This document shows positions 29,181-62,715 of a DNA stretch of 64,000 bases, in pieces. A program made the position numbers and the translations under genes. The notes under the pieces are model-generated. The model saw nothing but the letters and a program-made list of their open reading frames with translations. It did not search any database and was not told the DNA's origin. Each line of letters begins with the position of its first letter. Position 1 is the first letter of the stretch. The stretch lies in assembly GCA_930990125.1 (NCBI GenBank), contig CAKNOI010000003.1, positions 972-64,971 of the forward strand. The letters are read 5' to 3'. This DNA comes from an uncultured Clostridiaceae bacterium (GTDB lineage Bacteria; Bacillota; Clostridia; TANB77; CAG-508).

Positions 29181-29185
29181 CACAA

Positions 29186-33128: not shown

Positions 33129-33143
33129 AACAACAAAACAACA

Positions 33144-33217: not shown

Positions 33218-33219
33218 TA

Positions 33220-33248: not shown

Positions 33249-33269
33249 AAACCCAAAAGGAGAAAAAGC

Positions 33270-33950
33270 ATGATAAATCTATTGTTAGTAGAAGATAATG
33301 AAACCATTATCACAGGATTAACCTATGCACTTTCACAGGAAAGTTTTGAGGTGGATGTTGCTAGGACTGCCTATGAGACGAGGCAAAAGTTGCAAAGGCA
33401 ATCTTATGACTTACTTATTTTAGATGTTTCGCTTCCAGATGGGGATGGTTTTGAAATATGCAAAGAAGTAAAGAAAAAGGATATAGAACTTCCTATTATT
33501 TTTTTAACAGCAAAGGACGAGGAAAAAGATGTGGTATTAGGCCTAGAAATAGGAGCAGATGATTATGTTATTAAACCATTTCGTACCAAAGAACTTATTT
33601 CTAGAATTCGTACAGTGTTAAGAAGGTATCATAAAAAGGAAGAAAAAAGCACTATACAAATAAAAGATGTTACCATAGACCTTGCAAAAGCAGAAGTATA
33701 CAAAGGAAAGAGTCAAGTGATTCTAACAGCATTGGAATATAAAATATTGGTAATGCTCTTCCAAAATCAAAATCGACTCATTACAAGAGAACAACTATTA
33801 GATAAAATATGGGATGTTGCCGGAAATTTTGTAAATGATAATACGTTAACAGTATATATTAAAAGGATTCGTGAAAAAATAGAAAACAACCCTGCAGAGC
33901 CAGAAATTATTAAAACTATTCGAGGAATAGGATATAAGGTGGGCGAGTAA
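33270..33950 (+). CDS. OmpR-family response regulator (TCS-2, BceR-like)
   Basis: Receiver plus winged-helix domains; adjacent to the Bce-type transporter. Confidence 0.9.
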   Translation: MINLLLVEDNETIITGLTYALSQESFEVDVARTAYETRQKLQRQSYDLLILDVSLPDGDGFEICKEVKKKDIELPIIFLTAKDEEKDVVLGLEIGADDYVIKPFRTKELISRIRTVLRRYHKKEEKSTIQIKDVTIDLAKAEVYKGKSQVILTALEYKILVMLFQNQNRLITREQLLDKIWDVAGNFVNDNTLTVYIKRIREKIENNPAEPEIIKTIRGIGYKVGE

Positions 33951-33951
33951 A

Positions 33952-46695: not shown

Positions 46696-47199
46696 ATGAA
46701 AATGGCAGGATTTTATGATGAAAGTATTTCCAATGGACTAGGTTGGAGAGCAGTACTATTTGTAAGTGGATGTCCACATAACTGCCCAGGATGTCATAAC
46801 AAAGAAGCACAAAACTTTAATTATGGAGAAGAATTTCACAAAGATGAAATCATCCAAAGAATAAAAGAAAACTCTATTTTAAAAGGAGTTACTATTAGTG
46901 GAGGAGAACCACTTTGCAAACAAAATATAGGAGAGGTACTAGACTTTATCCAAACAGTAAAAAAAGAAAAACCAGGATTTAATATTTGGTGTTATTCTGG
47001 CTATACCCTAGAAGAACTAGAAGCAAGAAACGATGCAGTAACCAACGAAGTATTAAAAGAAATTGATGTACTAGTAGATGGAGAATTTGTAGAAGCCAAA
47101 AAAGTTCCAGGACTAAAATTTAGAGGCTCTGCTAACCAAAGAATATTGGACATGCCAAAATGCATTCGTGAAAATAAAATAGTAGAAGTACCAGTTTAA
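46696..47199 (+). CDS. nrdG: Anaerobic RNR activating protein (radical SAM)
   Basis: CPHNCPGC cluster motif; 167 aa; immediately after nrdD. Confidence 0.9.
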   Translation: MKMAGFYDESISNGLGWRAVLFVSGCPHNCPGCHNKEAQNFNYGEEFHKDEIIQRIKENSILKGVTISGGEPLCKQNIGEVLDFIQTVKKEKPGFNIWCYSGYTLEELEARNDAVTNEVLKEIDVLVDGEFVEAKKVPGLKFRGSANQRILDMPKCIRENKIVEVPV

Positions 47200-47246: not shown

Positions 47247-47750
47247 TTACTTGGAAAAAAAGATAGCTAAAAGGATAATAAGAACAATCATAATAACAAT
47301 AGAATAATAAATAGCACAAACAGCTAATAATAAAGCAAGCCCTCCTGCAATACCAAGGGTGGTATCAATAAGAAGTGTTCTCCACATTAGCTTTTTGTCA
47401 GAGGAAATACAAAGCAAAATTCCAATAAAGGAAAATAGCAAGAAAAATCCTCCAAATGTATACGCATGTTTTTCAAAACCGCCATCTAAAAATCTCCGAA
47501 ATAGGTCCATTTTAAAAGAACCTAGCGTACCATGTGAAAGCAAAAGTTCTAAAGAACAAAATACATCCATTAGCACTGCTCCGGAAAAGAATACACAAGG
47601 AGACATTCTTACAACATATCTTCGGAATGCATATACTCCTCCATAAATCCAAAAGATTAAAGCTAAAGATAGCATGCTTGGTAAAACCAGAGAAAATGCG
47701 TTTTCTGCTTCTAAATAAGATTTCAGTAAAAAGTATAACATGAAATTCAT
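47247..47750 (-). CDS. Hypothetical polytopic membrane protein (5 TM)
   Basis: Hydrophobicity pattern only. Confidence 0.45.
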   Translation of the reverse strand: MNFMLYFLLKSYLEAENAFSLVLPSMLSLALIFWIYGGVYAFRRYVVRMSPCVFFSGAVLMDVFCSLELLLSHGTLGSFKMDLFRRFLDGGFEKHAYTFGGFFLLFSFIGILLCISSDKKLMWRTLLIDTTLGIAGGLALLLAVCAIYYSIVIMIVLIILLAIFFSK

Positions 47751-48986: not shown

Positions 48987-49015
48987 TTGACGAAAAAGAC
49001 AAAATTTGGTACAAT
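48987..49015 (+). promoter_or_regulatory. Sigma-A promoter TTGACG, 17 nt, TACAAT
   Basis: Drives the Cys-rich small ORF at 49046. Confidence 0.55.
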
Positions 49016-49045
49016 AGAACTAGAGTTTTTAAGGAGGTGTTGTAA

Positions 49046-49168
49046 GTGGCTAAAAGATGTGGAGATTGTGAATATTATAGTAATGGAAGATGCACCTATG
49101 ATGGATATAGAACAGAAGGAGCAAACGACACAGAAGCACCTTACGATTGCGGACACTATAGTGCATAA
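49046..49168 (+). CDS. Unlisted 40-aa Cys-rich small protein (V/MAKRCGDCEYYSNGRCTYDGYRTEGANDTEAPYDCGHYSA); GTG start
   Basis: AAGGAGG RBS 8 nt upstream; promoter and terminator flank it; the overlapping 62-aa ORF in another frame lacks an RBS. Confidence 0.5.
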   Translation: MAKRCGDCEYYSNGRCTYDGYRTEGANDTEAPYDCGHYSA

Positions 49169-49169
49169 A

Positions 49170-49198
49170 AAATAGACCTAAAGAAGGTCTATTTTTTA
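49170..49198 (+). terminator. Intrinsic terminator (TAGACCT ... AGGTCTA + TTTTTT)
   Basis: Perfect hairpin with a T-run. Confidence 0.7.
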
Positions 49199-49227: not shown

Positions 49228-51129
49228 ATGGAAAAGAAAAAGCCAATTTACACAAAAGAAAAAGGTAGTATTTTACCAAATGTGAGTAAATGGCTGATAA
49301 AGCAAAGAACTAAAAAACAAGAAGAAAAGAGAATTATTAAAAAAGTAACAGCAGGAAAATTTAAAAATCAGGAACTAAAATATCTAGCAAATGGATTAGA
49401 TATTTTAAGATTACTCTACTTTCATGGTGTAGATATTTTAGAATGGGACTTGTTAAGTTCAGATAAAGAGCGCTCTAAGAAAGAAAACATTATAAAAGCA
49501 TTAATGGTATTTACTAGAAGAAATGTAGATATTATTTTATCACAAGTATCTGGAAAAATGTGGAGCAGTTATTACGAGCAAAAAAAATTAGCGGACTTTG
49601 AAAAAAATATGGAAATTTTAGCAAAGACCAATGGTATTATTACTACAATGCAAACTAAGACAGAAATAATAGATGGAAAAGAAACAGAAATACAAAGAGA
49701 AAGAGTTTATTCGCAAAAAGAAATATATGATATATTGAACTTTTTCCAATTACAAAAAGAAGGAATAGAAGACCATGGTATAGAAGAACTAGTAAATGTA
49801 GGGTTATCTATTGCAACATTTCTAGGCACAGTAACAGAAAATATTAAACAAAGTGATAAACCAATGTTAACTGGTACTCTTTTAGCAAGTGGTATAGCAG
49901 GAGGAATTGGCAACTTTGTGTATAAACAAAAACTGCAAGACAAAGAAGAAAATAAAGTAAGAGAAAAAAGAAGAAATGTAAGGTTTTACGAGCAAGAAAT
50001 GATAGAAACAGAACCGGTAAGCCAAGAAGATGAACGTTACATGCGAGAAAAAACAAAACAAAGTATGGAAGACTATCAAAAAGCAAAACAAAAACTATAT
50101 GGAAGACTAGATAGTGCAGATACAGGACTAAGCCTTGCTATTTCTTTAATGGTAGGGGCATTAACTATCAATCAAGTAGTAAAAGAAGGAAAGTTTACGG
50201 TTTCTTCTATTCCTAAAATATTGGCTCAATTTGGAGCAAATACAAGGGTTATATCTGGTCTAGGTCTTACCATGGGACAAATAAAAAGATTTCAAGAAAG
50301 AAGAATGGACTACAAAGAAGTGTTAGAAGAAGTACAAAACATTGTAAAACAAATAGAAGAAAAAGCAGAAAAACTAACAGAAGTAACACATCCTTTTACC
50401 CGTTTAAGTTTGCAGGATGTAACATTAAATTTTTATCAGACAGAAAATGAACAAGGAGGAGAAAAATACGGAAAAACATTAACAATACCTGAATTTCACG
50501 CCGATACCGGAGAAATAGTATTAGTAACAGGAAAATCAGGAAATGGAAAAAGTACATTACTAAAGCACTTAAAAAATGGAGATATACATAACCCAAAAAC
50601 AATTGCAATAGACGGAACAGAAAAAGTAGATAAAATAGGTAAAAAAGCAGTTATGTTTTCTTCAAGAATGCGATTAAGTGACATGACAAATATCCTAGGA
50701 CAAATAACAAGAAAAGAAAGACTAGAAGAATTAACTGCAGAAGAAAGACAAAAATTTGTTGCTATTCTAAAAGACTTAGAACTTTACCGAGAAGGAAAAA
50801 ATATGAAAGATATTATTTCTAAACGATATAGCGAATTTTCTAGCGGACAAAAAAACCGTATTGCCCTTGCAAAAGTATTGTACATGCTAGATGATAGTAA
50901 ACAAGTATTACTCCTAGACGAACCAACTAATTTCGTAGAAAAAGAATTAAGAAGAAAAACTTTCCATACCATTCAAAAATACTGCAAACAAGGAAAACCA
51001 AAAACCATTATTATAGCAACACATGATATTGAAATAGCAGAAGAAGTAGCAAATAGAAGATACAATATAACAGAAGAAGGATTAGTAGAAGAAGTACCAA
51101 TACAAAAAAATAAAGAAGAAAGATGCTAA
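49228..51129 (+). CDS. Atypical ABC-type ATPase fusion: ~400-aa N-terminal domain of unknown function (about 3 weak hydrophobic segments, coiled-coil) plus a C-terminal ABC nucleotide-binding domain
   Basis: Walker A GKSGNGKST, signature FSSGQKNRIALAKVL, Walker B LLLDEPTN, H-loop ATHD; no canonical 6-TM exporter domain. Confidence 0.7.
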   Translation: MEKKKPIYTKEKGSILPNVSKWLIKQRTKKQEEKRIIKKVTAGKFKNQELKYLANGLDILRLLYFHGVDILEWDLLSSDKERSKKENIIKALMVFTRRNVDIILSQVSGKMWSSYYEQKKLADFEKNMEILAKTNGIITTMQTKTEIIDGKETEIQRERVYSQKEIYDILNFFQLQKEGIEDHGIEELVNVGLSIATFLGTVTENIKQSDKPMLTGTLLASGIAGGIGNFVYKQKLQDKEENKVREKRRNVRFYEQEMIETEPVSQEDERYMREKTKQSMEDYQKAKQKLYGRLDSADTGLSLAISLMVGALTINQVVKEGKFTVSSIPKILAQFGANTRVISGLGLTMGQIKRFQERRMDYKEVLEEVQNIVKQIEEKAEKLTEVTHPFTRLSLQDVTLNFYQTENEQGGEKYGKTLTIPEFHADTGEIVLVTGKSGNGKSTLLKHLKNGDIHNPKTIAIDGTEKVDKIGKKAVMFSSRMRLSDMTNILGQITRKERLEELTAEERQKFVAILKDLELYREGKNMKDIISKRYSEFSSGQKNRIALAKVLYMLDDSKQVLLLDEPTNFVEKELRRKTFHTIQKYCKQGKPKTIIIATHDIEIAEEVANRRYNITEEGLVEEVPIQKNKEERC

Positions 51130-51240
51130 AAAAATAGCATCTTTTAAATTTTAATACAAAAAGCTTGTATAAATTTTCCAAAATGTATTATACTATCTAT
51201 AAAGAGAAAAAAACGCTTGAAAAAGAAAGGAAAGAAAAGA

Positions 51241-52515
51241 ATGAAAGAAAAGAAAATACAAATAAAAGAGGGAATTACTTTGCATTATATTCCAACCAAT
51301 AAATTTAAAAACAACATGCTTGCTGTTTTTTTAACGACACCGCTAGATAGAAAAACTGTTACTTGGAATAGTTTGCTAACAGCCGTATTAAGAAGAGGAA
51401 CGAAAACCATGCCAAGTCAAGAAAAAATTAGCGAAAATTTAGAAAAAATGTATGGAGCTTCTTTTGACTGTGGAGTAGAAAAAACAGGAGATAACCAAGT
51501 ATTAAAATTTTACATGGAGTCTCTTAATAATGAATTCTTACCAGAAAAAGAAAATTTGTTACAAGAAAGTATAGATATTTTATTAGAGGTAGTATGGAAT
51601 CCCTACTTAGAAAATGGAGCTTTTTCTAGGGAATATGTAGAAGGAGAAAAACATACTATAAAGCAATTAATAAAAGGAAAAATAGACGATAAAGCCAAAT
51701 ATGCAGTAGAACGTACTACAGAATTAATGTACCCAAATAAGCCATATGGATTATATAAATTTGGATATTTAGAGGATTTAGAAAGCATAACACCAGAAAA
51801 TTTATATACCCATTACCAAAAGCTTTTACAAGAATGTAAAATAGATATATTTGCTTCTGGAGATATAGACAAAGAAGAATTGGTCTCCATGTTGATGCAA
51901 AATGAGCAAATCCAAAAACTACAAGATAGAAAACCAAACTTTATCTGCCATGCGGATGCTTCCGAATTAGAAATACCAAAAACTCCAAACAAAGTAACAG
52001 AAAGCATGAACGTTTCCCAAGGGAAACTTATTTTGGGAATGTATGTGGATAGTAAAAAACCGGACGATAAATACGTGGCACTACTCTATAATGCTATTTT
52101 AGGAGGAAACGCGAATTCAAAATTATTTCAAAATGTAAGAGAAAAAGCAAGCCTTGCCTATACAGCAAGTTCTTCCTATATTAGACCTAAAAATATTATT
52201 TTTATTAAATGTGGCATAGAAATAGAAAACGAAGCAAAAACATTAGACATTATTGAAAAACAACTTCAAGACATAAAAAAGGGAGAATTCTCAGAAGAAG
52301 AAATAGAAATTTGTAAAAAACAAATAATATCTGCAATTAAAGGAATACCAGAGGGACAAGATACCGAAATTATTTACTATTATGGACAAGAAATTGCTGG
52401 CGAAAATGTTAGCTTAGAAGAATATATACAAAAGGTAAATGCAGTAACAAAGCAAGATATTATTGCACTTGCTCAAATGATAAATGTGCACACAGTTTAT
52501 TTCTTAAAAGATTAG
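51241..52515 (+). CDS. M16 family peptidase, non-catalytic subunit (no HxxEH); probable start at ATG 51241
   Basis: Insulinase-like fold length and C-terminal patterns; lacks the zinc-binding HxxEH. Confidence 0.7.
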   Translation: MKEKKIQIKEGITLHYIPTNKFKNNMLAVFLTTPLDRKTVTWNSLLTAVLRRGTKTMPSQEKISENLEKMYGASFDCGVEKTGDNQVLKFYMESLNNEFLPEKENLLQESIDILLEVVWNPYLENGAFSREYVEGEKHTIKQLIKGKIDDKAKYAVERTTELMYPNKPYGLYKFGYLEDLESITPENLYTHYQKLLQECKIDIFASGDIDKEELVSMLMQNEQIQKLQDRKPNFICHADASELEIPKTPNKVTESMNVSQGKLILGMYVDSKKPDDKYVALLYNAILGGNANSKLFQNVREKASLAYTASSSYIRPKNIIFIKCGIEIENEAKTLDIIEKQLQDIKKGEFSEEEIEICKKQIISAIKGIPEGQDTEIIYYYGQEIAGENVSLEEYIQKVNAVTKQDIIALAQMINVHTVYFLKD

Positions 52516-52528
52516 GAGGAAAATCAAC

Positions 52529-53821
52529 ATGCAGGTAATTGAAAATTTAAAAGTAAAAGAAAAAGTATATATAGAGACCTTAGAAAATGGATTAACGGTT
52601 CTTATTATTCCTAAAAAAGAAACAGAGAAAAAATTTATTATATGGGGAACTAATTTTGGATCTATTGATAGTAAATTTATAGCACCAGGAGAAAACGAAA
52701 TCACAACAGTTCCAGATGGAGTAGCCCACTTTTTGGAACATAAGTTATTTGAGCAAAAAAATGGAACCAATAGCCTAGATACATTAACTGCGATAGGAGT
52801 GGATGCCAATGCCTATACGACAACAGACCACACAGCATATTTATACGAATGTAACGATAAATTTTACGAAGCATTAGACGAGTTTATGGATTATGTACAA
52901 AATCCATACTTTACCAAAGAAAATGTAGAAAAAGAGAAAGGAATTATAGGACAAGAAATCCGCATGTACGATGACCACCCAGGTTGGCAGGTTTATATAA
53001 ATGCCATGCAGTGTTTATATCAAAATAATCCTGTTCGCATTGATATAGCAGGAAGCATTGAAAGTATTTCTAACATTGATAAAGATATTTTATACAAATC
53101 TTACAATACATTTTATCATCCATCTAATATGTGCTTAGTAGTATGCGGAAATTTTGAAGCAGAAGCTATTTTAGAAGAAATAAAAAAACGATTACTTCCA
53201 AAAGAAATAATAGGAGAAATACAAAGAATTTATCCAGAAGAACCAGAAAAGGTTGCAAACAAAGAATGTAAGAAACAAATGGAAGTAAGTACCCCAATTT
53301 TTGTAATAGGCATCAAAGATAAAGTAAGCAAGGAAAATATGGTAAAAAAACATATTGCTATTGAAGTTCTATTAAATATGATAATAGGAAAAAGTTCTAA
53401 ATTATATCAAACACTATATAAACAAGGATTATTGTTAGAAGAACCAGATATGCAATATGAGTGGTCCAAAGAGTATGCCCATATTACTATTTCAGCACAA
53501 AGTAAAGATCCTAAAAAAGTCTACCAAGGAATAGCAGATACCATACAAGAATATAAGAAACACGGCCTAGAACTAGAACATTTTGACAGAATAAAAAGAA
53601 AAATTTATGGCGATTATGTAAAAGAATTTGACGATGTGGCAGATATTGCAAGAATGTTTTTAGCAGACTGGATGAAAGGGGTAAATAGTTTTTCTTACTT
53701 AGAGCAATATAATGCTGTTACCAAATCTTATGCAGAAGAAATCCTAAAAGAAGTATTTCTAGAAGACAAAACCATCCTATCTGTTGTTGAACCTAATAGT
53801 AGTAGTAAGGAAGAAAAATAG
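52529..53821 (+). CDS. M16 family zinc peptidase, catalytic subunit
   Basis: HFLEH inverzincin motif and downstream E; RBS GGAGG. Confidence 0.8.
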   Translation: MQVIENLKVKEKVYIETLENGLTVLIIPKKETEKKFIIWGTNFGSIDSKFIAPGENEITTVPDGVAHFLEHKLFEQKNGTNSLDTLTAIGVDANAYTTTDHTAYLYECNDKFYEALDEFMDYVQNPYFTKENVEKEKGIIGQEIRMYDDHPGWQVYINAMQCLYQNNPVRIDIAGSIESISNIDKDILYKSYNTFYHPSNMCLVVCGNFEAEAILEEIKKRLLPKEIIGEIQRIYPEEPEKVANKECKKQMEVSTPIFVIGIKDKVSKENMVKKHIAIEVLLNMIIGKSSKLYQTLYKQGLLLEEPDMQYEWSKEYAHITISAQSKDPKKVYQGIADTIQEYKKHGLELEHFDRIKRKIYGDYVKEFDDVADIARMFLADWMKGVNSFSYLEQYNAVTKSYAEEILKEVFLEDKTILSVVEPNSSSKEEK

Positions 53822-54652
53822 ATGACAATTACGATTCCGCTTTTTTCTATCACCATAGCAATTCCTAAGATAGCATGCACTATCTTAGGAATCCAAATTT
53901 ATTGGTATGGAATTATTATTGCAATAGCAATGGCAGTTGCTGTTATTTTATACTATAAAAAAAGTGGTACTTATGGAATATCTTTTGACACTATTCTTAG
54001 TGCATTTTTATGGGTTATTCCATTTGCATTTTTGGGTGCTAGACTTTATTATGTCATATTCCGATGGGACTATTATAGTAGTAATCCTAGCCAAATACTA
54101 CAAATTAAAAACGGAGGACTAGCCATTTATGGAGGTTTGTTCGTAGGAGTGGCTATCTTATGTTTTTACTGCAAAAAAAATAAAATATGCATCCGAGACA
54201 TGCTAGACTATGTGGTACCAGAAATAGCAATAGCACAATCGATAGGAAGATGGGGAAATTTTTTTAATGTAGAAGCCTATGGAGTAGAAACCACCCTGCC
54301 ATGGAAAATGGGAATTGAAGCACAGGGAACGAACTCATACGTACATCCCACTTTTTTGTATGAATCTATTTGCACATTAGGAATCTATCTTTTACTACAC
54401 AAAATAGAAAAAAACAGAAAATGGAAAGGTCAGATAACTTGCTTATATATCACACTTTATTCTTTTGCTAGAATGTGGATAGAAGGCTTAAGAACAGACA
54501 GTCTATATCTAGGAAATATTCGTATTTCGCAATTAGTATCCATTATCCTTTTTGTCGTTTTTGGTAGTATTTTGTTTTATTTTGCATACCACAATAGAAA
54601 AATGTCAAAAAAAGAAGAAAAAAATAAAAAAGTGACATACAAAAATGCCTGA
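53822..54652 (+). CDS. lgt: Prolipoprotein diacylglyceryl transferase
   Basis: Polytopic; G..R.GNFFN.E..G signature region (GRWGNFFNVEAYG). Confidence 0.85.
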   Translation: MTITIPLFSITIAIPKIACTILGIQIYWYGIIIAIAMAVAVILYYKKSGTYGISFDTILSAFLWVIPFAFLGARLYYVIFRWDYYSSNPSQILQIKNGGLAIYGGLFVGVAILCFYCKKNKICIRDMLDYVVPEIAIAQSIGRWGNFFNVEAYGVETTLPWKMGIEAQGTNSYVHPTFLYESICTLGIYLLLHKIEKNRKWKGQITCLYITLYSFARMWIEGLRTDSLYLGNIRISQLVSIILFVVFGSILFYFAYHNRKMSKKEEKNKKVTYKNA

Positions 54653-55129: not shown

Positions 55130-55513
55130 ATGAAAAACAAAACAGTAAAAATAATTTCTGCAATAATGTTAGTAATGATGGTATTATTTTCAATGTCTAA
55201 TTTAGTACTTGCAGCTACAACTGGAGATCCATTAGACCCAAGTAAAATACAAGGACAACCATCTAAGGCTTCTGACAAAGTTAATGAGGCGGCAAATATT
55301 ATTTTAGGAATTGTTCAAGTAGTAGCTGTTGCAGTAGCGGTTATTATGCTTATTGTGTTAGCAGTTAAATATATATCCGCATCTCCAGAAGGAAAAGCGG
55401 ATATTAAAAAATCTGCAACAATGTACATTGTAGGAGCTATCTTACTATTTGCATCTACAGGTATTCTAGAAATACTAAAACAATTTGCAACAAGTACATT
55501 TGGAGGAGAATAA
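55130..55513 (+). CDS. Pilin-like small membrane protein (VirB2/TrbC-like; signal peptide + 2 TM), paralog 1
   Basis: Signal peptide ...VLAA; ILGIVQVVAVAVAVIML..AVKYISASPEGKADIK..ATMYIVGAILLFA. Confidence 0.6.
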   Translation: MKNKTVKIISAIMLVMMVLFSMSNLVLAATTGDPLDPSKIQGQPSKASDKVNEAANIILGIVQVVAVAVAVIMLIVLAVKYISASPEGKADIKKSATMYIVGAILLFASTGILEILKQFATSTFGGE

Positions 55514-55594
55514 TTTTTCATACCTATAAGCAAGAAAAATCAGGAGATGGTAAATACAATTTACCATCTTTTTTCAAAAAAGGTGGTGGATGTT

Positions 55595-55951
55595 ATGACA
55601 AGAAAAAAAATAGTAAGAATTATTGGTATTTTAATACTAGCAATGTTGTTAGGCTCAACGTTTGTTTTTGCAGATGACATTAATACAGGAGGCTATACAG
55701 GAATCTATCATGGGGGATCCCAAAGCATACGAAATGCAGGAAGCCTTATCCTAGGAGTAGTACAAGTAGTAGGAACAAGTATAGCGGTTATTATGCTAGT
55801 AATTATAGCTATTCGTTACTTTACTGCTGCACCAGAGGCAAAGGCAGATATTAAAAGCCAGCTTATCCCTTATGTAATAGGAGCTGTATTGCTATTTGCA
55901 GCAAGCAACCTAGTAAGTATTGTAGCAACAGCAGCACAGGAGATTTTTTAA
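55595..55951 (+). CDS. Pilin-like small membrane protein, paralog 2
   Basis: ILGVVQVVGTSIAVIMLVIIAIRYFTAAPEAKADIK...PYVIGAVLLFAA matches paralog 1; RBS AGGTGGTGG. Confidence 0.6.
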   Translation: MTRKKIVRIIGILILAMLLGSTFVFADDINTGGYTGIYHGGSQSIRNAGSLILGVVQVVGTSIAVIMLVIIAIRYFTAAPEAKADIKSQLIPYVIGAVLLFAASNLVSIVATAAQEIF

Positions 55952-56194
55952 AATTGCTTACGGACAAAGGCAAAAGGAGCGAACACTTACAAACAAAAGT
56001 AAAACATAAGACAAAAAGAAAAAAGAGTCAAAATAGAACGCAAAAAACAGGTCTATTTTGGCTCTTTTATTGCAACAATATTACAGTTATATGAAAAGTT
56101 CATAATAATGACGAATATAACCTATAAATGTTGAAAAATACAGGGAAATGAAGTATAATAATAAGTAATAGAGTGTAAAAGTGGGGTGAAAGAA

Positions 56195-56734
56195 ATGAAA
56201 GGAAAAACAATGAAAAAAATAATTTACAGTATCCTGTTACTTCTATTAACAATAAGCCTAATACTTCCAAGCACAGTACAAGGATATACACAAGATATAG
56301 TCTTAGCTGACGCAGACGGTGGAGATACTGTTACTGGTGGTGGAGGAAGCGCAGATGGGTTTACTTTGGATAGTATTAAAGAACAAGCAGATACCTGGCT
56401 AAATGGGGGAAAAGGACAAGACCATATTAATGACCAACAGCTACAAAACATTATCATTCCTATTGGACAAATGTTAGTAGCAATAGGAAGTGTGGTACTG
56501 GTTATTGTTACTACTATCATGGGTATTAAATACATCATGGGTGGACCAGATAAAAGAGCACAATTAAAACAACAATTAGTAGGTTTGGTAGTAGCAACTA
56601 TTGTTATTTTCGCTGCACAAGCAATATGGGCACTCGTATATAATTTTATGACAGACTTAACAGTAAGTAAAAAAGTAGAAAGAACCCCAATGAAACAAGA
56701 AATACAATTACCAGAAGAAATCTGGAAAGGATAA
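56195..56734 (+). CDS. Pilin-like small membrane protein, paralog 3 (longer, Gly/Asp-rich N-terminal extension)
   Basis: IPIGQMLVAIGSVVLVIVTTIMGIKYIMGGPDKRAQLKQQLVGLVVATIVIFAA has the same two-helix layout. Confidence 0.55.
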   Translation: MKGKTMKKIIYSILLLLLTISLILPSTVQGYTQDIVLADADGGDTVTGGGGSADGFTLDSIKEQADTWLNGGKGQDHINDQQLQNIIIPIGQMLVAIGSVVLVIVTTIMGIKYIMGGPDKRAQLKQQLVGLVVATIVIFAAQAIWALVYNFMTDLTVSKKVERTPMKQEIQLPEEIWKG

Positions 56735-56750
56735 CAAAGGAGGAAAAATA

Positions 56751-57089
56751 ATGGGTACATATTATATTCCTAGAAATGTAAAAGGAGAAACAAGATTATT
56801 AAATATCTTTACCGTAAAATCTCTTATCACAACCGTTGCAGGAACAATCATTGGTTCTGTATTTTATCTTATTTTTGGACTACTTCTGGGACTAAAACCA
56901 GTAGGAATTGGAATAATGGTTTTCTTTGCTGTAGTAGGATTTGGAGTAGGAGCCATTAAAATACCAACACTAGGAGGAATTCCTTTTACCCAAAAAATTG
57001 GTGGAGAATCCTTAGACGAAATCATAAGAAGATACATCAAATTTAAAATGAACCGAAAAGTGTACACTTATACAAAGGAGGAAAAATAG
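56751..57089 (+). CDS. VirB3/PrgI-like small two-TM T4SS protein
   Basis: 112 aa, two adjacent TMs, directly upstream of the VirB4 region; RBS AAAGGAGG. Confidence 0.55.
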   Translation: MGTYYIPRNVKGETRLLNIFTVKSLITTVAGTIIGSVFYLIFGLLLGLKPVGIGIMVFFAVVGFGVGAIKIPTLGGIPFTQKIGGESLDEIIRRYIKFKMNRKVYTYTKEEK

Positions 57090-57092
57090 AAC

Positions 57093-58277
57093 ATGGATAT
57101 CATTGTTATACTGAACTTAGTTTTAATTATAGCTGTTATACTAATTGCTATTTTTGCTGGACTGTTCTTCTGGTTTTGGATGCGCTCTAAAAAGAAACAA
57201 GAAGAAGAGCTATTAGATGGACAAGCACCAAAAGAACAATCCACTTTTCATGGCATACCAAGAGAGTCTATTTATAAATTTTTAGAGTTTGACGAAATAA
57301 AAGATAATATGATTATCCGAAAAAATAGACAACAATATGTTATGGTAATCCAATGCCAAGGAGTTAACTATGACTTATTATCCGAAGAAGAAAAAGTAGC
57401 GGTAGAAGAAGGATTTGTCCAATTCTTAAACACGCTTCGTTTTCCAATTCAATTATATATTCAAACAAGAAGTCTAAATTTAAGAGAAATTGTAGATGAA
57501 TACAAAGAACGCGTAAAGAAAATGCAAGAAGAACTAGATGCACTAAATGTAAGAATAAGAGATGCAGAAAGACGTGGCAATCAAAAAGAAATAGATAAAT
57601 TAAATTATGAAAGAAGAAGAAAAGAAAACGTATTAGAATATGGAGCTGACATTGCAGATTATGTAGGAAGACTAAGTTTAAATAAAAATGTATTGCAACA
57701 AAGAAATTATGTTGTTGTTTCTTACTACGCATCCGAATTTAGTGGAGGAGATAAGTATTCAAAAGAAGAAATAGACAATATCTGTTTTGGAGAACTATAT
57801 ACAAGATGTCAATCCATTATTCGTTCTTTATCTTCTTCTAGCGTTCTAGGAAAGGTATTAACATCAGAAGAATTAGGAGAGCTACTTTATATTGCTTATA
57901 ACAGAGATGAATCTGAAATTATGCAATTATCCAAAGCTCTAGATGCACAATACGATGCTCTATATAGCACTGCAAAAGATGTATTACAGAAAAAGCAAGC
58001 ACAAATAGAAGAACAGCTTGAAGTAGAAGCAGTAAACCTAGCAACAGAAAGTATTTTAGAAGCAGACAGAATTCGTAAAAAAGAATTAAGTAATGAAGAT
58101 AAGAAAAAGAAAATAAAAGAAAAAGCATTACAAATGATAGAAGAATATAAAGATCAAATGGATGCTGACCTTTACGAAGAAACTAAAAAGGAAATTGTAA
58201 GACAAGCAGAAAATTTAGAAGAGAAAACAGAAAAGAAGAAACAAACAAGTAGAACAAAAGCAAAGAAAGGAGAATAA
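57093..58277 (+). CDS. T4SS-associated membrane protein: N-terminal TM then a long charged coiled-coil (394 aa)
   Basis: RBS AAAGGAGG; operonic with virB4. Confidence 0.5.
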   Translation: MDIIVILNLVLIIAVILIAIFAGLFFWFWMRSKKKQEEELLDGQAPKEQSTFHGIPRESIYKFLEFDEIKDNMIIRKNRQQYVMVIQCQGVNYDLLSEEEKVAVEEGFVQFLNTLRFPIQLYIQTRSLNLREIVDEYKERVKKMQEELDALNVRIRDAERRGNQKEIDKLNYERRRKENVLEYGADIADYVGRLSLNKNVLQQRNYVVVSYYASEFSGGDKYSKEEIDNICFGELYTRCQSIIRSLSSSSVLGKVLTSEELGELLYIAYNRDESEIMQLSKALDAQYDALYSTAKDVLQKKQAQIEEQLEVEAVNLATESILEADRIRKKELSNEDKKKKIKEKALQMIEEYKDQMDADLYEETKKEIVRQAENLEEKTEKKKQTSRTKAKKGE

Positions 58278-58283
58278 TCGGAT

Positions 58284-60251
58284 ATGAGAAAAAACAAAAA
58301 GATTGAACAAGAACAAGCTATACAAAGTGAAAATATGCAAGGTGTATTAAATAAAAATGCAAAGACCATAAAAGATTTAATTGCACCTGCTGGAATAGAT
58401 GCAAGCAACACCAATCACTTGGAAATTGTATCTAATCGTTCTAGGTTTGCAAGAAGTATGGTTGTTTCTACTATTCCAAGGATGTGTACCTTCCCAGAGT
58501 TTTTAAGAAGCATGTACACATTTGGGGATGCAAACATTTCCGTATTTATTAATCCTATCAGTGAAAGTACCTCACAAACAGACTTAAATAGAACCATTAA
58601 TGAGCTAGAATCAGAAAGAATTGTAGCAATGGACAAAGGAGATATTAACCGTGAAAGAATTCTAGCACAAAAAAGATTAGAAGCAGAAGAACTAAGAGAC
58701 CAAATTGCAGCAGGGTTTAATAAAATATTTGAATCTTCTATTATATGTACGTTATTTGCCTATAACCTAGAAGATTTAAACAAACAAACAGAATTCTTAG
58801 CATCAGAAATGTCCAAAACATTAATAGGAGTAAAACCAGCATGGGCAATGCAAGAAGAAGCATTTAAATCCAATATGCCATATTGTGATAATAAAATAAA
58901 TAAAGCCCATTCTTTTGACCGTAGAAGTATGGCAACAGTATTCCCATTCTTTACTTCTGACGTAGGACATGAAAAAGGAATACCACTAGGATTTAACAGA
59001 CAAACAGGATTACCTATTTTATTTGATAACTTTAGCCCAAAACTAACCAATTACAACATGATTATTTTTGGTAAATCTGGTGCTGGTAAAGGTGTAACCA
59101 TCAAAACGTTAACAGCACGTTCTGCTGTATTAATGGGAATTGAAAGTTTAGCACTAGATGCCGAAGGTGAGTATGGAGTAGTGGCAGAATCTTTAGGAGG
59201 AATTAATGTTACCATTAGTCCAAACTCTAATACAATTATTAACCTATTTGACTTAGAACCAGAAATTGTACGTGATGAGATTACCGGAAGAGAAAGAACA
59301 GTATTAAATATAGAAAATAAAGTAGAAGACGTAACACAGGCTCTACTTACCATGGCAAGAGGAAGTACAAGAAGTACAGAGGTAAACGAGCTTACCAAAC
59401 AAATTATAGCAGAAGCAGTAGCCGAGGAATATGCAGGACTTGGTATTACCAATAGTTTAGAAAGTCTTTACACAGACGAAACACCAGCATTTCGTAAAAA
59501 CTATTTAGGAAGAACCAAAAAAGAAATGCCAACCATTGGTTCTTGGTATAAAAGAATTTTGCAAAATGCAAGTAAAAATGATAACCCAGACTATCGTTTC
59601 CACTATAGTTATTTAGCAAAAGTAATGAGACAATATGTAAGAGAATACGATGGACAAATGGCATACTTTGACGGACAATCTACTTTTGAATTATTAGATA
59701 GTGTACCATTTATTAACCTAGATATTTCCCAACTAGAAGAGAGATTTGCAAGACCACTTGCACAACAAATTCTACTTTCTTGGATTTGGGAAAAATATGT
59801 TAAGAAAAACAGTGAAGATAGAACCAAAGCAACCAAAAAAAGAGTACTAGTAGACGAGGCATGGATGTTACTACCATATCCAGAAGCAGTAGACTTCTTA
59901 AATACAATGGCAAGACGTGCCAGAAAAAGAAATGTATCCCTTGCCGTAGTATCACAAAAATTCCAAGACTTTTATGAAAAACAAGAAGCACAAGCAGTTT
60001 TAACATCATCTGATACAAAATTATTCTTAGCACAAGATAAATCTGAAATTGAATATATAAAAGAAGTATTTAAACTAAGCGAAGGAGAAGCAGCATTTTT
60101 AACAACCTGCAGTAGAGGAGAAGGACTATTAAAAGTAGGAGAAGATACAGCAATTATTGCAATTAAACCAACACAAAAAGAATTCGAATTCGTAGAAACA
60201 AACGTAAACGAAATTGTAAGACATAATAGAAGAAAAACAGACCCAAAATAA
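58284..60251 (+). CDS. VirB4/TraE/ConE-family conjugation ATPase
   Basis: Walker A IIFGKSGAGKGVTIKT, Walker B VLVDEAWMLL, N-terminal VirB4 domain (NHLEIVSNRSRFARSMVVSTIPRMCTFPEFL). Confidence 0.85.
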   Translation: MRKNKKIEQEQAIQSENMQGVLNKNAKTIKDLIAPAGIDASNTNHLEIVSNRSRFARSMVVSTIPRMCTFPEFLRSMYTFGDANISVFINPISESTSQTDLNRTINELESERIVAMDKGDINRERILAQKRLEAEELRDQIAAGFNKIFESSIICTLFAYNLEDLNKQTEFLASEMSKTLIGVKPAWAMQEEAFKSNMPYCDNKINKAHSFDRRSMATVFPFFTSDVGHEKGIPLGFNRQTGLPILFDNFSPKLTNYNMIIFGKSGAGKGVTIKTLTARSAVLMGIESLALDAEGEYGVVAESLGGINVTISPNSNTIINLFDLEPEIVRDEITGRERTVLNIENKVEDVTQALLTMARGSTRSTEVNELTKQIIAEAVAEEYAGLGITNSLESLYTDETPAFRKNYLGRTKKEMPTIGSWYKRILQNASKNDNPDYRFHYSYLAKVMRQYVREYDGQMAYFDGQSTFELLDSVPFINLDISQLEERFARPLAQQILLSWIWEKYVKKNSEDRTKATKKRVLVDEAWMLLPYPEAVDFLNTMARRARKRNVSLAVVSQKFQDFYEKQEAQAVLTSSDTKLFLAQDKSEIEYIKEVFKLSEGEAAFLTTCSRGEGLLKVGEDTAIIAIKPTQKEFEFVETNVNEIVRHNRRKTDPK

Positions 60252-60287
60252 AAGAAAAAAAGAAATGATAAAGAAAGGAGATAGGAA

Positions 60288-61490
60288 ATGAAAAAACTAC
60301 TTACCAGTATGCTAATAATTATGGTTTTATTTCAGACCGTACTATCTCCAAAAACTATTTTTGCTGCAGAAGTAGCAGAGGATACTGCTACAGATACAGT
60401 ATCAGAAGAAGCACCATATACCCAGGAAGATATTGATAAATTGTTACACAATGGAACAGGAAACAAGGGAGATAAAGAGGATGTTACCATTGATAGAGAT
60501 TTGGGGGATGGACAAAGCATTTATGATATGAACTCTAATACAACAAAAAGTATTTTTACTATGTTATTTGGAGTATTAAATATGATTCCATTAACCATAA
60601 GTACTATTCTTTCACTAGCAGTAACAGATTTTGTTGTCCCAGATAAACAAGTACCTAATTTTCTAACAATAGAGGATTTAGTATTTGGCAAAATTTCCAT
60701 GTTAGATATTAATTTTTTAAGTAATCAGAATATGGGAACTACACAAAATGGAGTAGAAATTAATGCTCAAATTAAAGAGCAGGTAGCTATATGGTATTAT
60801 GCTGTAAGAAATATTGCCATTGTTTTATCTTTAATTGTTCTACTATATGTAGGGATTCGAATGGCAATTTCAACCGTGGCTGCTGAAAGAGCTAAATATA
60901 AAGAAATGTTAAAAAATTGGCTTATTTCCTTTGTGTTACTATTTACACTACAATATATTATATCTGCTATATTTTTGTTTTACTCTCTATGTATTCAAGT
61001 AACTTCACATTTGTATAGCAATGAAGCAGGATTTGAACAAGAAATTATTAATAATGTAATGCTAGATTTAGATAAAGAAGTGGGAATAGATGTAGTTTTA
61101 TCTTCTATTACTTACTGGATATTAGTCTTTTACCAAGTACGATTTTTACTAATATATGTAAAAAGATTTATTGTAACAGGATTTTTAATAGCAATTGCAC
61201 CAGCAATTACGGTAACTTATACCATAGATAAAATGGCAGATAAAAGAGCACAAGCATTTGAAACATGGAAAAGAGAGTTAATTATTAACATTCTAATTCA
61301 GCCATTACATATTTTAATATATACTGTATTCCTTGTGGCTGCAGGAGCAATAGTAGAAACAGCACCAATACTATCCATACTTTTCTTTACATCTTTATCA
61401 AGAGTAGAGAAAATTGTAAAGGGAGTATTTAGAATGAGAGGAGCTAAATCAATTCATTCTATGTCAGAAACACTAAGATTAAAAAAATAG
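60288..61490 (+). CDS. VirB6/TrbL-like polytopic T4SS channel protein (paralog A, with an N-terminal secreted domain)
   Basis: Signal peptide, ~170-aa external domain, then 6-7 TMs starting IWYYAVRNIAIVLSLIVLLYVGIRMAIST. Confidence 0.65.
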   Translation: MKKLLTSMLIIMVLFQTVLSPKTIFAAEVAEDTATDTVSEEAPYTQEDIDKLLHNGTGNKGDKEDVTIDRDLGDGQSIYDMNSNTTKSIFTMLFGVLNMIPLTISTILSLAVTDFVVPDKQVPNFLTIEDLVFGKISMLDINFLSNQNMGTTQNGVEINAQIKEQVAIWYYAVRNIAIVLSLIVLLYVGIRMAISTVAAERAKYKEMLKNWLISFVLLFTLQYIISAIFLFYSLCIQVTSHLYSNEAGFEQEIINNVMLDLDKEVGIDVVLSSITYWILVFYQVRFLLIYVKRFIVTGFLIAIAPAITVTYTIDKMADKRAQAFETWKRELIINILIQPLHILIYTVFLVAAGAIVETAPILSILFFTSLSRVEKIVKGVFRMRGAKSIHSMSETLRLKK

Positions 61491-61509
61491 TAAAGAAAGG
61501 ATGGTAATA

Positions 61510-62715
61510 ATGAGCAAAAAGAAAAAAATTCTAATTGGTATATTGGTTTTGTTGATTATCGTGTTACTTATCTATCTTACCATCCGTTATTTACAAGGAC
61601 TTACCTATGATCCAGAAAAGCCATACCAAACAATAAAAGAAGCGGTAGAAGCCTTAGGACATACTTACCTAAAAGAAGAAACATCTACGGAAGAAAGATT
61701 TTCCGAAGATATTTACCTAAATTTTTCGGTGGACTTATACACAGAAGAAAACAGTAATGAAAAAATATATAATGACCTTATTTATACAATTGCAAGAGTA
61801 GAAAAATACAAAAGTTTTCGCTTAATAGACCCAGAAAAAGAAACAGTAATTGCAGTACTTGCCAATGAACAAGAAAAAAAGTTAGTTAGAATTTATATTA
61901 ACGGAGACGATAACTACTTTGGAAGACATAGGTCTATGGAAACGATAGAAGAATATACAGAAACACCGGTTACAGACTTTATCATAGAATCGCCTATTCT
62001 TCAAGATAGTATAAGAACAAATTGGAGTACCAATATTTATCTAGGAACCGAAGATGAAAAAAGAGAAGATTATAGAATTTATTCAGATGAGGGGCTAGAA
62101 GTAAAAAAAGTAGATAATAAATTATTTAACATTGTTTTTACACAAAATTATAACAACACCATAGTAAATGGCATAAAAGTAGGAGAAACAATAGATGCTA
62201 TTATTCCTATACTAGGAACTCCAACCTTTGGAAGCAAACAGGAAGGCTTAATAGGATACAAAGGAGAACAATTCTATATTTTCTTTATGGAAAAAGAAAT
62301 TTCTGTTTATCCAGTACTTAAAAATTATGACACAACAGAATTTGTGCAATTAGTTACAACTTATACGGAAGAAGGAAATGCAAGCGATTTTGTAAAAAAA
62401 ATAACAGGCTTATGGAGTGATTATGATCTTTATGAACATGACACAAACTATGTAAAATTACGATATACCTTAAAAGGAGTAGAAATACAATTTAATATTA
62501 CTCCAAACCATGGTATTACCTATTACCAAAATTATCAAGGAGAAATAAAAGAAGGAATTAATTTTAGTAATCTAAAGGAAAAAGAAGGAGAACTATCCAA
62601 TTATATTTATTTTCAGCTAGATACAAACTTAGTATATAAAACAGAACAAGAAAGATTTCATGCATTTCTTTTAAGAGAAAAGGCAAAAGAAACATTAAAT
62701 CCATATGATGAGTAA
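61510..62715 (+). CDS. Bitopic T4SS protein (TcpC/VirB8-like topology: N-terminal TM + ~370-aa external domain)
   Basis: RBS AAAGGA 8 nt before ATG 61510; single TM. Confidence 0.5.
   Translation: MSKKKKILIGILVLLIIVLLIYLTIRYLQGLTYDPEKPYQTIKEAVEALGHTYLKEETSTEERFSEDIYLNFSVDLYTEENSNEKIYNDLIYTIARVEKYKSFRLIDPEKETVIAVLANEQEKKLVRIYINGDDNYFGRHRSMETIEEYTETPVTDFIIESPILQDSIRTNWSTNIYLGTEDEKREDYRIYSDEGLEVKKVDNKLFNIVFTQNYNNTIVNGIKVGETIDAIIPILGTPTFGSKQEGLIGYKGEQFYIFFMEKEISVYPVLKNYDTTEFVQLVTTYTEEGNASDFVKKITGLWSDYDLYEHDTNYVKLRYTLKGVEIQFNITPNHGITYYQNYQGEIKEGINFSNLKEKEGELSNYIYFQLDTNLVYKTEQERFHAFLLREKAKETLNPYDE

What the first reader, a model, noticed from the sequence alone, without database searches (positions are those of the whole stretch)
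49228..51129. ABC nucleotide-binding domain fused to a ~400-aa N-terminal domain lacking the usual six-TM exporter fold
The C-terminus has all ABC motifs (GKSGNGKST, SGQKNRIALA, LLLDEPTN, ATHD). The N-terminus has only about three modest hydrophobic stretches (VNVGLSIATFLGTV, LTGTLLASGIAGGIGNFVY, LSLAISLMVGALTINQVV) between long charged coiled-coil regions, and it begins with a Lys-rich segment. I do not recognise this architecture. It could be a novel membrane-associated ABC mechanotransducer or regulator rather than a transporter.
Basis: seen in the sequence. Interest (0 to 1): 0.5.

Follow-up and report, generated by a model that had tools for sequence, protein, structure and literature searches.

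The report
Exporter-fold ABC protein with non-hydrophobic helices
This gene encodes a very diverged relative of the common bacterial ABC export pumps: its predicted shape matches the pump's six-helix membrane domain, but the helices are too polar to look membrane-spanning, so it may be a pump fold that has partly left the membrane.

Summary
The ORF (49228..51129, +, 633 aa) and all quoted motifs are real. The C-terminus is a diverged but catalytically complete ABC nucleotide-binding domain (NBD). The 390-aa N-domain matches no Pfam, NCBIfam or PDB sequence profile.

The underlying observation is quantitatively right and holds across the family:
- No helix passes two hydrophobicity tests that classical exporters and neighbouring membrane proteins pass 4-7 times.
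- The three predicted "outside" turns carry 8 Lys/Arg.
- The NBD lacks the Q-loop glutamine and the exporter X-loop.
- Intracellular loop 1 carries a conserved beta-hairpin insertion.

The family is small (27 representatives among 1.84 billion proteins) and comes from gut and other metagenomes; the one relative with an organism name is an uncultured Clostridia genome. The gene stands alone, with no conserved neighbour in about nine genomic contexts.

Best reading: an ATP-driven homodimeric descendant of a type I exporter whose helical domain is at most weakly or partly membrane-embedded. Its substrate or target is unknown. I rate it a new variant of a known kind, of moderate interest.

The parts
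49228..51129 (+). ORF of 633 aa: a helical N-domain followed by an ABC nucleotide-binding domain (half-transporter order, TMD then NBD)
49228..49365 (+). N-terminal polybasic segment, aa 1-46 (16 K/R in the first 50 aa). It has low model confidence. It sits where classical exporters have an elbow helix.
49366..50373 (+). Six-helix domain, aa 47-382: H1 47-77, H2 84-134, H3 163-208, H4 212-260, H5 266-320, H6 325-382. It is predicted to have the type I ABC exporter membrane-domain fold.
49642..49707 (+). Beta-hairpin insertion, aa 139-160, at the position of intracellular loop 1 (coupling helix 1). Its flanks are the best conserved N-domain motifs: family consensus QAARDG...DG...YD..M...E, with E165 invariant.
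49789..49923 (+). H3-H4 hairpin tip, aa 188-232. It holds two charge-free Gly-rich stretches (invariant G192 and G200; G222 in at least 90% of members) separated by the charged turn ENIKQSDKP.
50125..50181 (+). H5 tip, aa 300-318 (GLSLAISLMVGALTINQVV). This is the most hydrophobic segment of the protein: KD 1.69, Hessa sum +3.9, Wimley-White -3.2.
50401..51096 (+). ABC nucleotide-binding domain, aa 392-623
50527..50553 (+). Walker A, GKSGNGKST (aa 434-442). G435, S437, G438, G440, K441 and T443 are invariant in the family.
50662..50664 (+). Q-loop position. Ser479 aligns with the Q-loop glutamine of the PDB chain 4yms_J. Most family members have Pro here.
50836..50850 (+). Signature motif FSSGQ (aa 537-541; canonical LSGGQ). 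The preceding ISKRYSE occupies the place of the exporter X-loop (TEVGERG) and lacks its Glu and Gly.
50905..50922 (+). Walker B plus catalytic Glu, VLLLDE (aa 560-565). D564, E565 and P566 are invariant. The D-loop that follows reads NFVE instead of SALD.
51022..51024 (+). H-loop His599, invariant in the family
51118..51145 (+). Terminator-like hairpin overlapping the stop codon. The gene is probably not co-transcribed with the M16 peptidase genes downstream.
48987..49197 (+). Upstream unit that probably supplies the transcript:
- promoter-like TTGACG-17-TG-TACAAT (48987-49015)
- RBS AGGAGG (49033)
- unannotated 40-aa Cys-rich ORF (49046..49168)
- hairpin plus T-run (49173-49197)

Only about 30 nt separate the hairpin from the ABC start codon. 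The unit is conserved in L001 but not in distant family members.

Best explanation
The gene encodes a lineage-restricted, extremely diverged descendant of the type I ABC exporter half-transporter. This is the Sav1866/MsbA-like fold, called 'type IV' in the newer fold nomenclature.

Shown here, by structure prediction rather than experiment:
- The N-domain adopts the six-long-helix exporter architecture.
- The least polar residues sit next to the three turns that would face outward.
- The conserved residues sit at the NBD-proximal end (ICL1 hairpin, ICL2 with invariant E262, and the H6-NBD linker with Q375 and K379).

Inferred from invariant motifs:
- The NBD binds and hydrolyses ATP (Walker A, FSSGQ signature, Walker B D564-E565, H599, A-loop Y403).
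- Because each polypeptide carries one NBD, it must work as a homodimer in which ATP-driven NBD closure moves the two helical bundles.

Inferred from hydrophobicity, charge distribution and conservation:
- The helical domain is no longer a conventional twelve-helix membrane pore.
- H1, H2 and H6 are polar, and the 'outside' turns are Lys/Arg-rich.
- Only three short charge-free Gly-rich stretches remain family-wide (tips of H3, H4 and H5).
- I therefore think the dimer is at most shallowly or partly embedded. It would be held at the cytoplasmic face by those tips and the polybasic N-terminus, with ATPase coupling rewired: the Q-loop Gln and X-loop are lost and ICL1 has gained a beta-hairpin.

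The substrate or target is unknown. No conserved neighbour gene points to one.
For: Fold:
- The full-length model has pLDDT 76.6 and pTM 0.64.
- All of the top 50 Foldseek PDB hits are type I half-transporters, aligned over about 600 columns.

Sequence trace:
- BLASTP extends from the NBD into aa 249-400 against PF00664 proteins.
- The TM5-TM6 piece alone gives E = 4e-4, in register.
- NCBIfam CydC and PrtD alignments extend to aa 250-290.

Hydrophobic peaks lie only next to the predicted outward turns.

Catalytic motifs are invariant across 15 members that share 24-29% identity with the target (61% for the close ortholog).

Loss of membrane character:
- Hessa sums per helix are +10.8, +12.4, +6.7, +4.3, +3.9 and +7.7. 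Control P0069 gives -2.9 to +5.2.
- 0-1 segments pass the test in each of the 34 members tested (15, 19). The same test flags 27 of 299 neighbouring ORFs as polytopic membrane proteins.
- The Wimley-White result sits at the level of soluble controls.
- The outward turns carry 8 K/R in the target and 2-5 per turn in most members. Members P0148 and P0151 carry none; I also saw none on reading control P0069's sequence.
- Conserved and hydrophobic faces coincide in 5 of 6 belt segments.

Native stand-alone gene:
- GC content is like its surroundings.
- It is flanked by terminators.
- No neighbour is shared across about 9 contexts.
Against: - Everything about the fold rests on AlphaFold2 with a 15-sequence alignment. 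AF2 also returns the exporter fold for designed water-soluble variants (PMC10988169), so it says nothing about membrane embedding.
- No sequence-profile method links the N-domain to PF00664.
- The hydrophobicity measures are crude, with no position weighting and no trained TM predictor.
- The moment analysis was not calibrated on a real exporter family.
- The three charge-free stretches of 16-20 residues, conserved family-wide, are unusual for a fully soluble protein.
- Two members (P0148, P0151) look like ordinary membrane proteins. A conventional transmembrane arrangement with a very polar cavity therefore remains possible for the target.
Confidence: 0.5

Rival explanations
1. It is a genuine, fully membrane-spanning homodimeric type I ABC exporter. 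Its translocation cavity is unusually polar, for example to carry a peptide or another hydrophilic substrate, and its marginal helices insert cooperatively.
For: - The exporter fold is predicted with correct topology, with the hydrophobic maxima next to the outward turns.
- Gly residues are conserved in the H3, H4 and H5 belts.
- Charge-free cores occur at aa 191-200, 221-230 and 301-310 family-wide.
- Members P0148 and P0151 have uncharged outward turns and 4-5 Wimley-White segments.
- The top structural neighbours include peptide transporters: McjD, SbmA, ComA and HlyB.
Against: - No helix passes either hydrophobicity test at the level of controls.
- H1 and H2 have 5-7 charged residues in 23, with Hessa sums above +10.
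- 8 Lys/Arg sit in three short turns that would have to be translocated, against the positive-inside rule.
- The charges in the belts vary in position between members. That suits solvent exposure better than a conserved cavity lining.
- The NBD elements that normally grip the TMD, the Q-loop Gln and the X-loop, are missing.
Confidence: 0.3
2. The N-domain is not exporter-derived at all. It is an unrelated coiled-coil or helical-bundle domain on a soluble ABC ATPase, as in SMC-like, ABC-F-like or defence-system ATPases, and the exporter-like model is an AlphaFold artefact.
For: - No profile-level similarity to PF00664 or to PDB exporters.
- The best NBD matches are importer-type and ABC-F NBDs at only 50-70 bits.
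- There are weak PADLOC hits to the mad3, AriA and PtuA ATPases.
- Composition is that of a soluble protein: GRAVY -0.52 and 31% charged residues.
Against: - Helix lengths, turn positions and the hydrophobic maxima reproduce the exporter pattern.
- The TM5-TM6 similarity is in register.
- The PADLOC hits cover only the NBD.
- The genomic context is housekeeping, not a defence island.
Confidence: 0.1
3. In this lineage the protein is the export or immunity component of a small peptide system. That system would comprise the upstream 40-aa Cys-rich ORF, the ABC protein and the two downstream M16 peptidases, loosely like the subtilosin sbo-alb cluster. That comparison is from my own knowledge and was not tested here.
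For: - A conserved small ORF has its own promoter and a hairpin only about 30 nt before the ABC start, which suggests read-through co-transcription.
- An M16 pair lies immediately downstream.
- The same arrangement occurs in L001, whose ABC protein is 61-62% identical.
Against: - The small ORF and the M16 pair are absent next to all distant family members.
- A terminator-like hairpin separates the ABC gene from the M16 genes.
- No maturation enzyme is present; the nearby radical-SAM protein (167 aa, 46696..47199) lies immediately after the anaerobic ribonucleotide reductase gene and, by my own reading of the sequences, is its NrdG activase (neither gene was scanned here).
- The window and L001 share synteny over more than 15 kb, so adjacency there carries little weight.
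- The peptide has no recognised leader sequence or family.
Confidence: 0.07

Closest known systems
Type I ABC exporter half-transporters ('type IV' fold): Sav1866, MsbA, McjD, EfrCD, Rv1273c/72c, BmrCD, HlyB
   Same: - Domain order TMD then NBD in one chain of about 600 aa.
- Six long helices with cytoplasmic extensions and three short outward turns.
- The conserved residues concentrate at the ICL/NBD end.
- Catalytic NBD motifs are complete.
   Different: - No PF00664 signal.
- Only 5-11% identity in the TMD.
- No hydrophobic TM segments, and Lys/Arg-rich 'outside' turns.
- A beta-hairpin sits in place of a simple coupling helix 1.
- The Q-loop Gln and X-loop are absent, and the D-loop is altered.
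- It has a polybasic N-terminus.
SbmA/BacA peptide transporters (exporter-fold TMD without an NBD)
   Different: By my own knowledge, SbmA is a hydrophobic integral membrane protein driven by the proton gradient. It has no NBD, whereas the target keeps a catalytically complete one.
CFTR and SUR1/2 (exporter fold co-opted as a channel or a channel regulator)
   Different: They are fully membrane-embedded eukaryotic full-length proteins with regulatory domains. No comparable partner or channel signature was found here.
Designed water-soluble 'QTY' variants of ABC transporters (PMC10988169)
   Same: They have an exporter architecture with polar residues on what were the membrane-facing helices. 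AF2 predicts the same fold despite the loss of hydrophobicity (title and abstract as listed).
   Different: They are artificial designs. The target is a natural family under selection, and it retains three charge-free helix tips.
Soluble ABC ATPases (ABC-F/EttA, Uup, SMC/Rad50-like, defence ATPases such as PtuA, AriA and mad3)
   Same: Weak NBD-level similarity, a polar overall composition, and no partner membrane subunit encoded nearby.
   Different: Those proteins have tandem NBDs or coiled coils inserted within the NBD. None has an N-terminal six-helix exporter-like bundle.

Membership tests
Type I ABC exporter half-transporter (PF00664 TMD + PF00005 NBD) | TMD-NBD order in one polypeptide with a C-terminal ABC domain | tested here: met
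   ABC_tran matches aa 422-568 (E = 3.4e-16), and a helical domain of about 390 aa lies N-terminal to it.
Type I ABC exporter half-transporter (PF00664 TMD + PF00005 NBD) | Six long helices with the exporter fold | tested here: met
Type I ABC exporter half-transporter (PF00664 TMD + PF00005 NBD) | Sequence-profile match to ABC_membrane (PF00664) or to solved exporters | tested here: not met
   No PF00664 hit at E <= 1 in any of 15 members. The family profile finds no exporter in the PDB at E <= 10. hhalign against P0012 and P0069 is not significant. The only trace is a pairwise TM5-TM6 match, E = 4e-4.
Type I ABC exporter half-transporter (PF00664 TMD + PF00005 NBD) | Six hydrophobic membrane-spanning segments | tested here: not met
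   The target has 0 segments with Hessa sum <= 3, against 4-5 in P0012 and P0069. Wimley-White gives 3 marginal windows against 6-7 strong ones. The same holds across the family members tested (15 and 19 on the Hessa test, 33 on Wimley-White). The scales are crude and no trained predictor was available.
Type I ABC exporter half-transporter (PF00664 TMD + PF00005 NBD) | Topology consistent with the positive-inside rule (few Lys/Arg in extracytoplasmic turns) | tested here: not met
   There are 4+2+2 K/R in the three predicted outward turns of the target and 2-5 per turn in most members. Members P0148 and P0151 have none; none seen on reading control P0069's sequence.
Type I ABC exporter half-transporter (PF00664 TMD + PF00005 NBD) | NBD elements that couple to the TMD: Q-loop glutamine and exporter X-loop (TEVGERG) | tested here: not met
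   The Q-loop position is S479, and Pro in most members. The X-loop position reads ISKRYSE, with no Glu/Gly pattern, in alignments to P0069 and P0012.
Type I ABC exporter half-transporter (PF00664 TMD + PF00005 NBD) | Domain-swapped dimer (TM4-TM5 crossing to the partner NBD) | not testable with these tools
   Only monomer predictions were possible, and no model coordinates were accessible.
ABC ATPase superfamily (catalytically active NBD) | Walker A, signature, Walker B with catalytic Glu, H-loop, A-loop aromatic | tested here: met
   GKSGNGKST, FSSGQ, LLLDE565, H599 and Y403 are invariant or nearly invariant in 15 members that share 24-29% identity with the target (61% for the close ortholog).
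ABC-F / other soluble tandem-NBD ABC proteins | Two NBDs in one chain joined by a linker, with no helical N-domain | tested here: not met
   There is a single NBD. The NCBIfam ABC-F models match only aa 363-617, at 54-68 bits against cut-offs of 380-800.
Known anti-phage defence ABC-like ATPases (PADLOC models) | Full-length match and defence-island context | tested here: not met
   The hits (mad3, AriA, PtuA) cover only parts of the NBD. The neighbours are housekeeping genes.

The most novel reading that the evidence does not exclude
A natural family in which the type I ABC exporter fold has left the membrane. Most members, including this one, would be soluble or only peripherally anchored ATP-driven dimers whose former transmembrane helices are now solvent-exposed. 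A minority (P0148 and P0151) would still span the bilayer. That would capture a membrane-to-soluble transition of a transporter fold and imply a non-transport function such as a clamp, an extractor or a regulator.
Probability: 0.3. Interest if true: 0.8.

Novelty: new variant of a known kind. Interest (0 to 1): 0.5.

Why it matters
ABC exporters are among the best studied membrane machines, and their six-helix domain is assumed to be an obligate membrane fold. A natural, conserved family that keeps the fold and a catalytically complete ATPase, but has lost helix hydrophobicity, the Q-loop glutamine and the X-loop, would bear on two questions:
- how far NBD-TMD coupling can be rewired;
- whether a transporter fold can be re-used outside the bilayer.

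It also has practical value. The N-domain has no Pfam or NCBIfam model, so these proteins are currently annotated only as generic ABC ATP-binding proteins. If instead it proves to be an ordinary exporter with odd composition, it becomes a useful stress test for TM predictors and for the positive-inside rule.

Tried and rejected
- Pfam, NCBIfam and PADLOC scans of the protein and of 15 N-domains found nothing beyond the NBD.
- An hmmsearch of the PDB with the N-domain profile found no exporter. hhalign of the profile against two PF00664 proteins was not significant, though single-sequence targets make this a weak test.
- I looked for a conserved partner gene in about 9 distinct contexts from 27 loci and found none. 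Lgt recurs in one other clade, but 5 kb away on the opposite strand, so I judged it coincidental.
- The 167-aa minus-strand neighbours in the window and in L003 are unrelated.
- A link to the upstream Cys-rich small ORF is rejected as a family-wide feature: the ORF is present only in the window, L007 and L001. A link to the M16 pair is rejected on the same grounds.
- AT-rich genome composition does not explain the polarity, because membrane proteins of the same contigs score normally.
- A mobile-element or defence origin is not supported by GC content or context.
- The afdb50 fold library was unavailable.
- An alignment-based metagenome scan with the N-domain alone failed for lack of conserved stretches.
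- Three literature searches found no description of a natural non-membrane exporter-fold ABC protein.
Full report
**Observation.** The window carries an ORF at 49228..51129 (+) of 633 aa, with an ATG start and a GGGGGA ribosome-binding site.
- Walker A, GKSGNGKST (aa 434-442)
- signature, FSSGQ (aa 537-541)
- Walker B plus catalytic Glu, LLLDE (aa 561-565)
- H-loop, H599
- three modest hydrophobic stretches (aa 189-202, 214-232, 301-318)
- a polybasic N-terminus

Pfam sees only ABC_tran (aa 422-568, E = 3.4e-16) and nothing in aa 1-410. NCBIfam gives only sub-threshold NBD matches, best 69 bits against cut-offs above 250. PADLOC gives only partial NBD matches. The window has about 31% GC and the gene matches its surroundings.

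**Family and distribution.**
- In the 5.8-billion-protein index, only two clusters are full-length relatives: one at 100% and one at 61% identity.
- A full phmmer of aa 1-410 against 1.84 billion representatives found only 27 proteins. Most are 610-650 aa and align over aa ~20-407.
- The 62% ortholog lies in an uncultured Clostridia MAG with conserved synteny (L001).
- A metagenome scan with the family-specific NBD pattern K[RN]GDI[NHG]N added 21 loci, two of them labelled human gut metagenome.
- The window organism carries sporulation genes: SpoIIE and a Spo0E-like protein.

**Fold.** With a 15-sequence family alignment (A1), AlphaFold2 gives pLDDT 76.6 and pTM 0.64. The elements are helices 47-77 and 84-134, a beta-hairpin at 139-160, helices 163-208, 212-260, 266-320 and 325-382, and then the NBD.
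- Foldseek against the PDB returns only type I half-transporters in the top 50 (ABCB6, MsbA, TM287/288, Atm1, McjD, HlyB, PCAT1), aligned over about 600 columns.
- The Kyte-Doolittle maxima (aa 53-71, 184-206, 213-231, 300-318, 331-349) lie only next to the three predicted outward turns (78-83, 209-211, 321-324). That is what exporter topology requires.
- At sequence level there is a faint trace. BLASTP against two PF00664-bearing proteins runs from the NBD back to aa 249-287. The TM5-TM6 piece alone aligns in register with P0012 (EGKFTVSSIPKILAQF against SGKFTVGAIIAVSIL; pairwise E = 4e-4).
- Profile methods fail: no PF00664 in 15 members, no PDB exporter hit, and hhalign not significant.

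I conclude that the N-domain descends from a type I exporter membrane domain. The evidence for this is predicted structure plus a weak sequence trace.

**What is unusual.** The helices are not hydrophobic.
- The lowest unweighted Hessa dG sum of any 19-aa window inside H1 to H6 is +10.8, +12.4, +6.7, +4.3, +3.9 and +7.7 kcal/mol. The classical exporter P0069 gives -1.4, +2.1, -2.9, -0.8, -1.1 and +5.2.
- With a threshold of 3, the target has 0 segments and each of the 34 family members tested has 0-1 (15, 19). P0012 and P0069 have 4-5, membrane proteins in the window have 4-6, and 27 of 299 neighbouring ORFs have at least 4.
- On the Wimley-White octanol scale the target N-domain has three windows barely below zero (-0.3, -0.3, -3.2) and family members have 1-5. 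Classical exporters have 6-7 windows at -2 to -16. Soluble NrdD and M16 controls have 2-3.
- The N-domain has GRAVY -0.52 with 31% charged residues. P0069 has +0.52 with 18%.
- The three turns that should be extracytoplasmic carry 4, 2 and 2 Lys/Arg in the target and 2-5 each in most members. This goes against the positive-inside rule. Two divergent members (P0148, P0151) carry none and also have more hydrophobic helices; I also saw none on reading control P0069's sequence.
- Charges in the belts vary in position between members.
- In a 33-sequence alignment the hydrophobic and conservation moments point the same way in 5 of 6 belt segments, at angles of 9-42°. That is the pattern of solvent-exposed rather than lipid-exposed helices. 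I could not calibrate this on a real exporter family.
- Three short charge-free Gly-rich cores persist family-wide: aa 191-200, 221-230 and 301-310, with charged fractions of 0.00, 0.07 and 0.07. G192 and G200 are invariant, and G222 and G310 are present in at least 90% of members. A fully soluble protein would not need these cores.

**NBD and coupling elements.** Walker A, S538, G540, R544, D564-E565-P566 and H599 are invariant (Q541 in at least 90% of members), and F402-Y403 (A-loop) are invariant. ATP binding and hydrolysis are therefore under selection.
- The Q-loop glutamine is Ser479 in the target and Pro in most members (alignment to 4yms_J).
- The exporter X-loop position reads ISKRYSE.
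- The D-loop is NFVE or GNVE.
- Intracellular loop 1 carries a roughly 22-residue beta-hairpin whose flanks (QAARDG, DG, YD..M...E165) are the best conserved N-domain motifs.
- ICL2 keeps an invariant E262, and the H6-NBD linker keeps Q375 and K379.

The NBD-helical domain interface is thus conserved within the family but differs from that of classical exporters.

**Genomic context.**
- Upstream lie NrdD and NrdG (assigned from my own reading of the sequences; not scanned here), an unassigned 167-aa membrane protein on the minus strand, and YqeY.
- Downstream lie two M16 peptidases, Lgt, a Spo0E-like protein and a T4SS-like cluster.
- A terminator-like hairpin overlaps the ABC stop codon.
- Between yqeY and the ABC gene is an unannotated unit. 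It consists of a strong promoter-like site (10 of 12 matches with an extended -10 TG), an AGGAGG RBS, a 40-aa Cys-rich ORF (MAKRCGDCEYYSNGRCTYDGYRTEGANDTEAPYDCGHYSA) and a hairpin with a T-run that ends about 30 nt before the ABC start.
- This unit is conserved in L001, with 6 synonymous and 5 non-synonymous differences by my count. The ABC gene is therefore probably transcribed by read-through.
- Neither the small ORF nor the M16 pair accompanies distant family members. Across about 9 distinct contexts no neighbour is shared. The family is a stand-alone gene with no separately encoded membrane partner.

**Mechanism.** My committed reading has three parts.
- Predicted rather than experimentally shown: an exporter-derived six-helix domain followed by a catalytically complete NBD.
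- Inferred: a homodimer in which ATP-driven NBD closure moves the two helical bundles.
- Inferred: the helical domain is at most shallowly or partly embedded, held at the cytoplasmic face by the H3/H4/H5 tips and the polybasic N-terminus. It is not a conventional 12-helix pore.

I put about 0.8 on exporter descent and about 0.5 on the whole statement. The main rival is a true spanning exporter with an unusually polar pathway (0.3). An unrelated coiled-coil domain with an AF2 artefact gets 0.1. A lineage-specific peptide-export module involving the small ORF and the M16 pair gets 0.07. The substrate or target is unknown.

**Comparison and novelty.**
- The closest known kind is the type I ABC exporter half-transporter. 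The fold, domain order and catalytic motifs are met.
- The PF00664 signature, hydrophobic TM segments, positive-inside topology, Q-loop and X-loop were tested and not met. I therefore do not file it as an ordinary member.
- CFTR/SUR and SbmA show that the fold can be re-purposed.
- Designed QTY variants (PMC10988169) are the nearest analogue of a polar exporter fold, but they are artificial.
- I found no paper describing a natural case.

Verdict: a new variant of a known kind, interest 0.5. If the non-membrane reading (probability about 0.3) proves true, it would deserve about 0.8.

Noticed in passing
window 48987-49197 (+); ORF 49046..49168: An unannotated 40-aa Cys-rich ORF (MAKRCGDCEYYSNGRCTYDGYRTEGANDTEAPYDCGHYSA; CxxC...C...CxH). 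It has a GTG start, an AGGAGG RBS, a strong promoter-like site and its own hairpin terminator. It is conserved in L001 (7831..7953) with mostly synonymous or conservative changes. It has no Pfam family, and only close homologues exist in the 5.8-billion-protein index.
   Followed up: partly
window 55130-62715 (+): A chromosomal T4SS-like cluster. It has four proteins with T4SS_pilin/TrbC-like domains (55130-55513, 55547-55951, 56186-56734, 60288-61490), a VirB4/TraG-like P-loop ATPase (58284-60251), and unassigned 394-aa and 404-aa proteins. No relaxase was seen in the window. The first part is syntenic in L001.
   Followed up: no
window 51217-53821 (+): A pair of M16 peptidase paralogues directly downstream. 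The first (432 aa) matches only the inactive M16_C domain. The second (430 aa) has both M16 and M16_C. This suggests a heterodimer with one catalytic subunit. Lgt follows at 53822-54652.
   Followed up: no
window 47247-47750 (-): A 167-aa protein on the opposite strand with 4 hydrophobic segments and no Pfam family. It is conserved in L001 and L007. It is not related to the same-sized minus-strand neighbour in L003-L006.
   Followed up: partly
family members P0148 and P0151: Two divergent members of the same family keep uncharged 'outside' turns and more hydrophobic helices, while the rest are polar. This looks like a within-family gradient from membrane-like to soluble-like sequences.
   Followed up: partly
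window 1-2000: The first 2 kb has markedly lower GC (0.196) and high AT and GC skew compared with the rest of the window (about 0.30-0.33).
   Followed up: no
window 26362-35190 (+): Two response-regulator/histidine-kinase pairs (26362-29180 and 33270-35190) flank an ABC ATPase plus a MacB/FtsX-type permease (29831-32262). By my own knowledge this layout resembles Bce-like peptide-sensing and detoxification modules.
   Followed up: no
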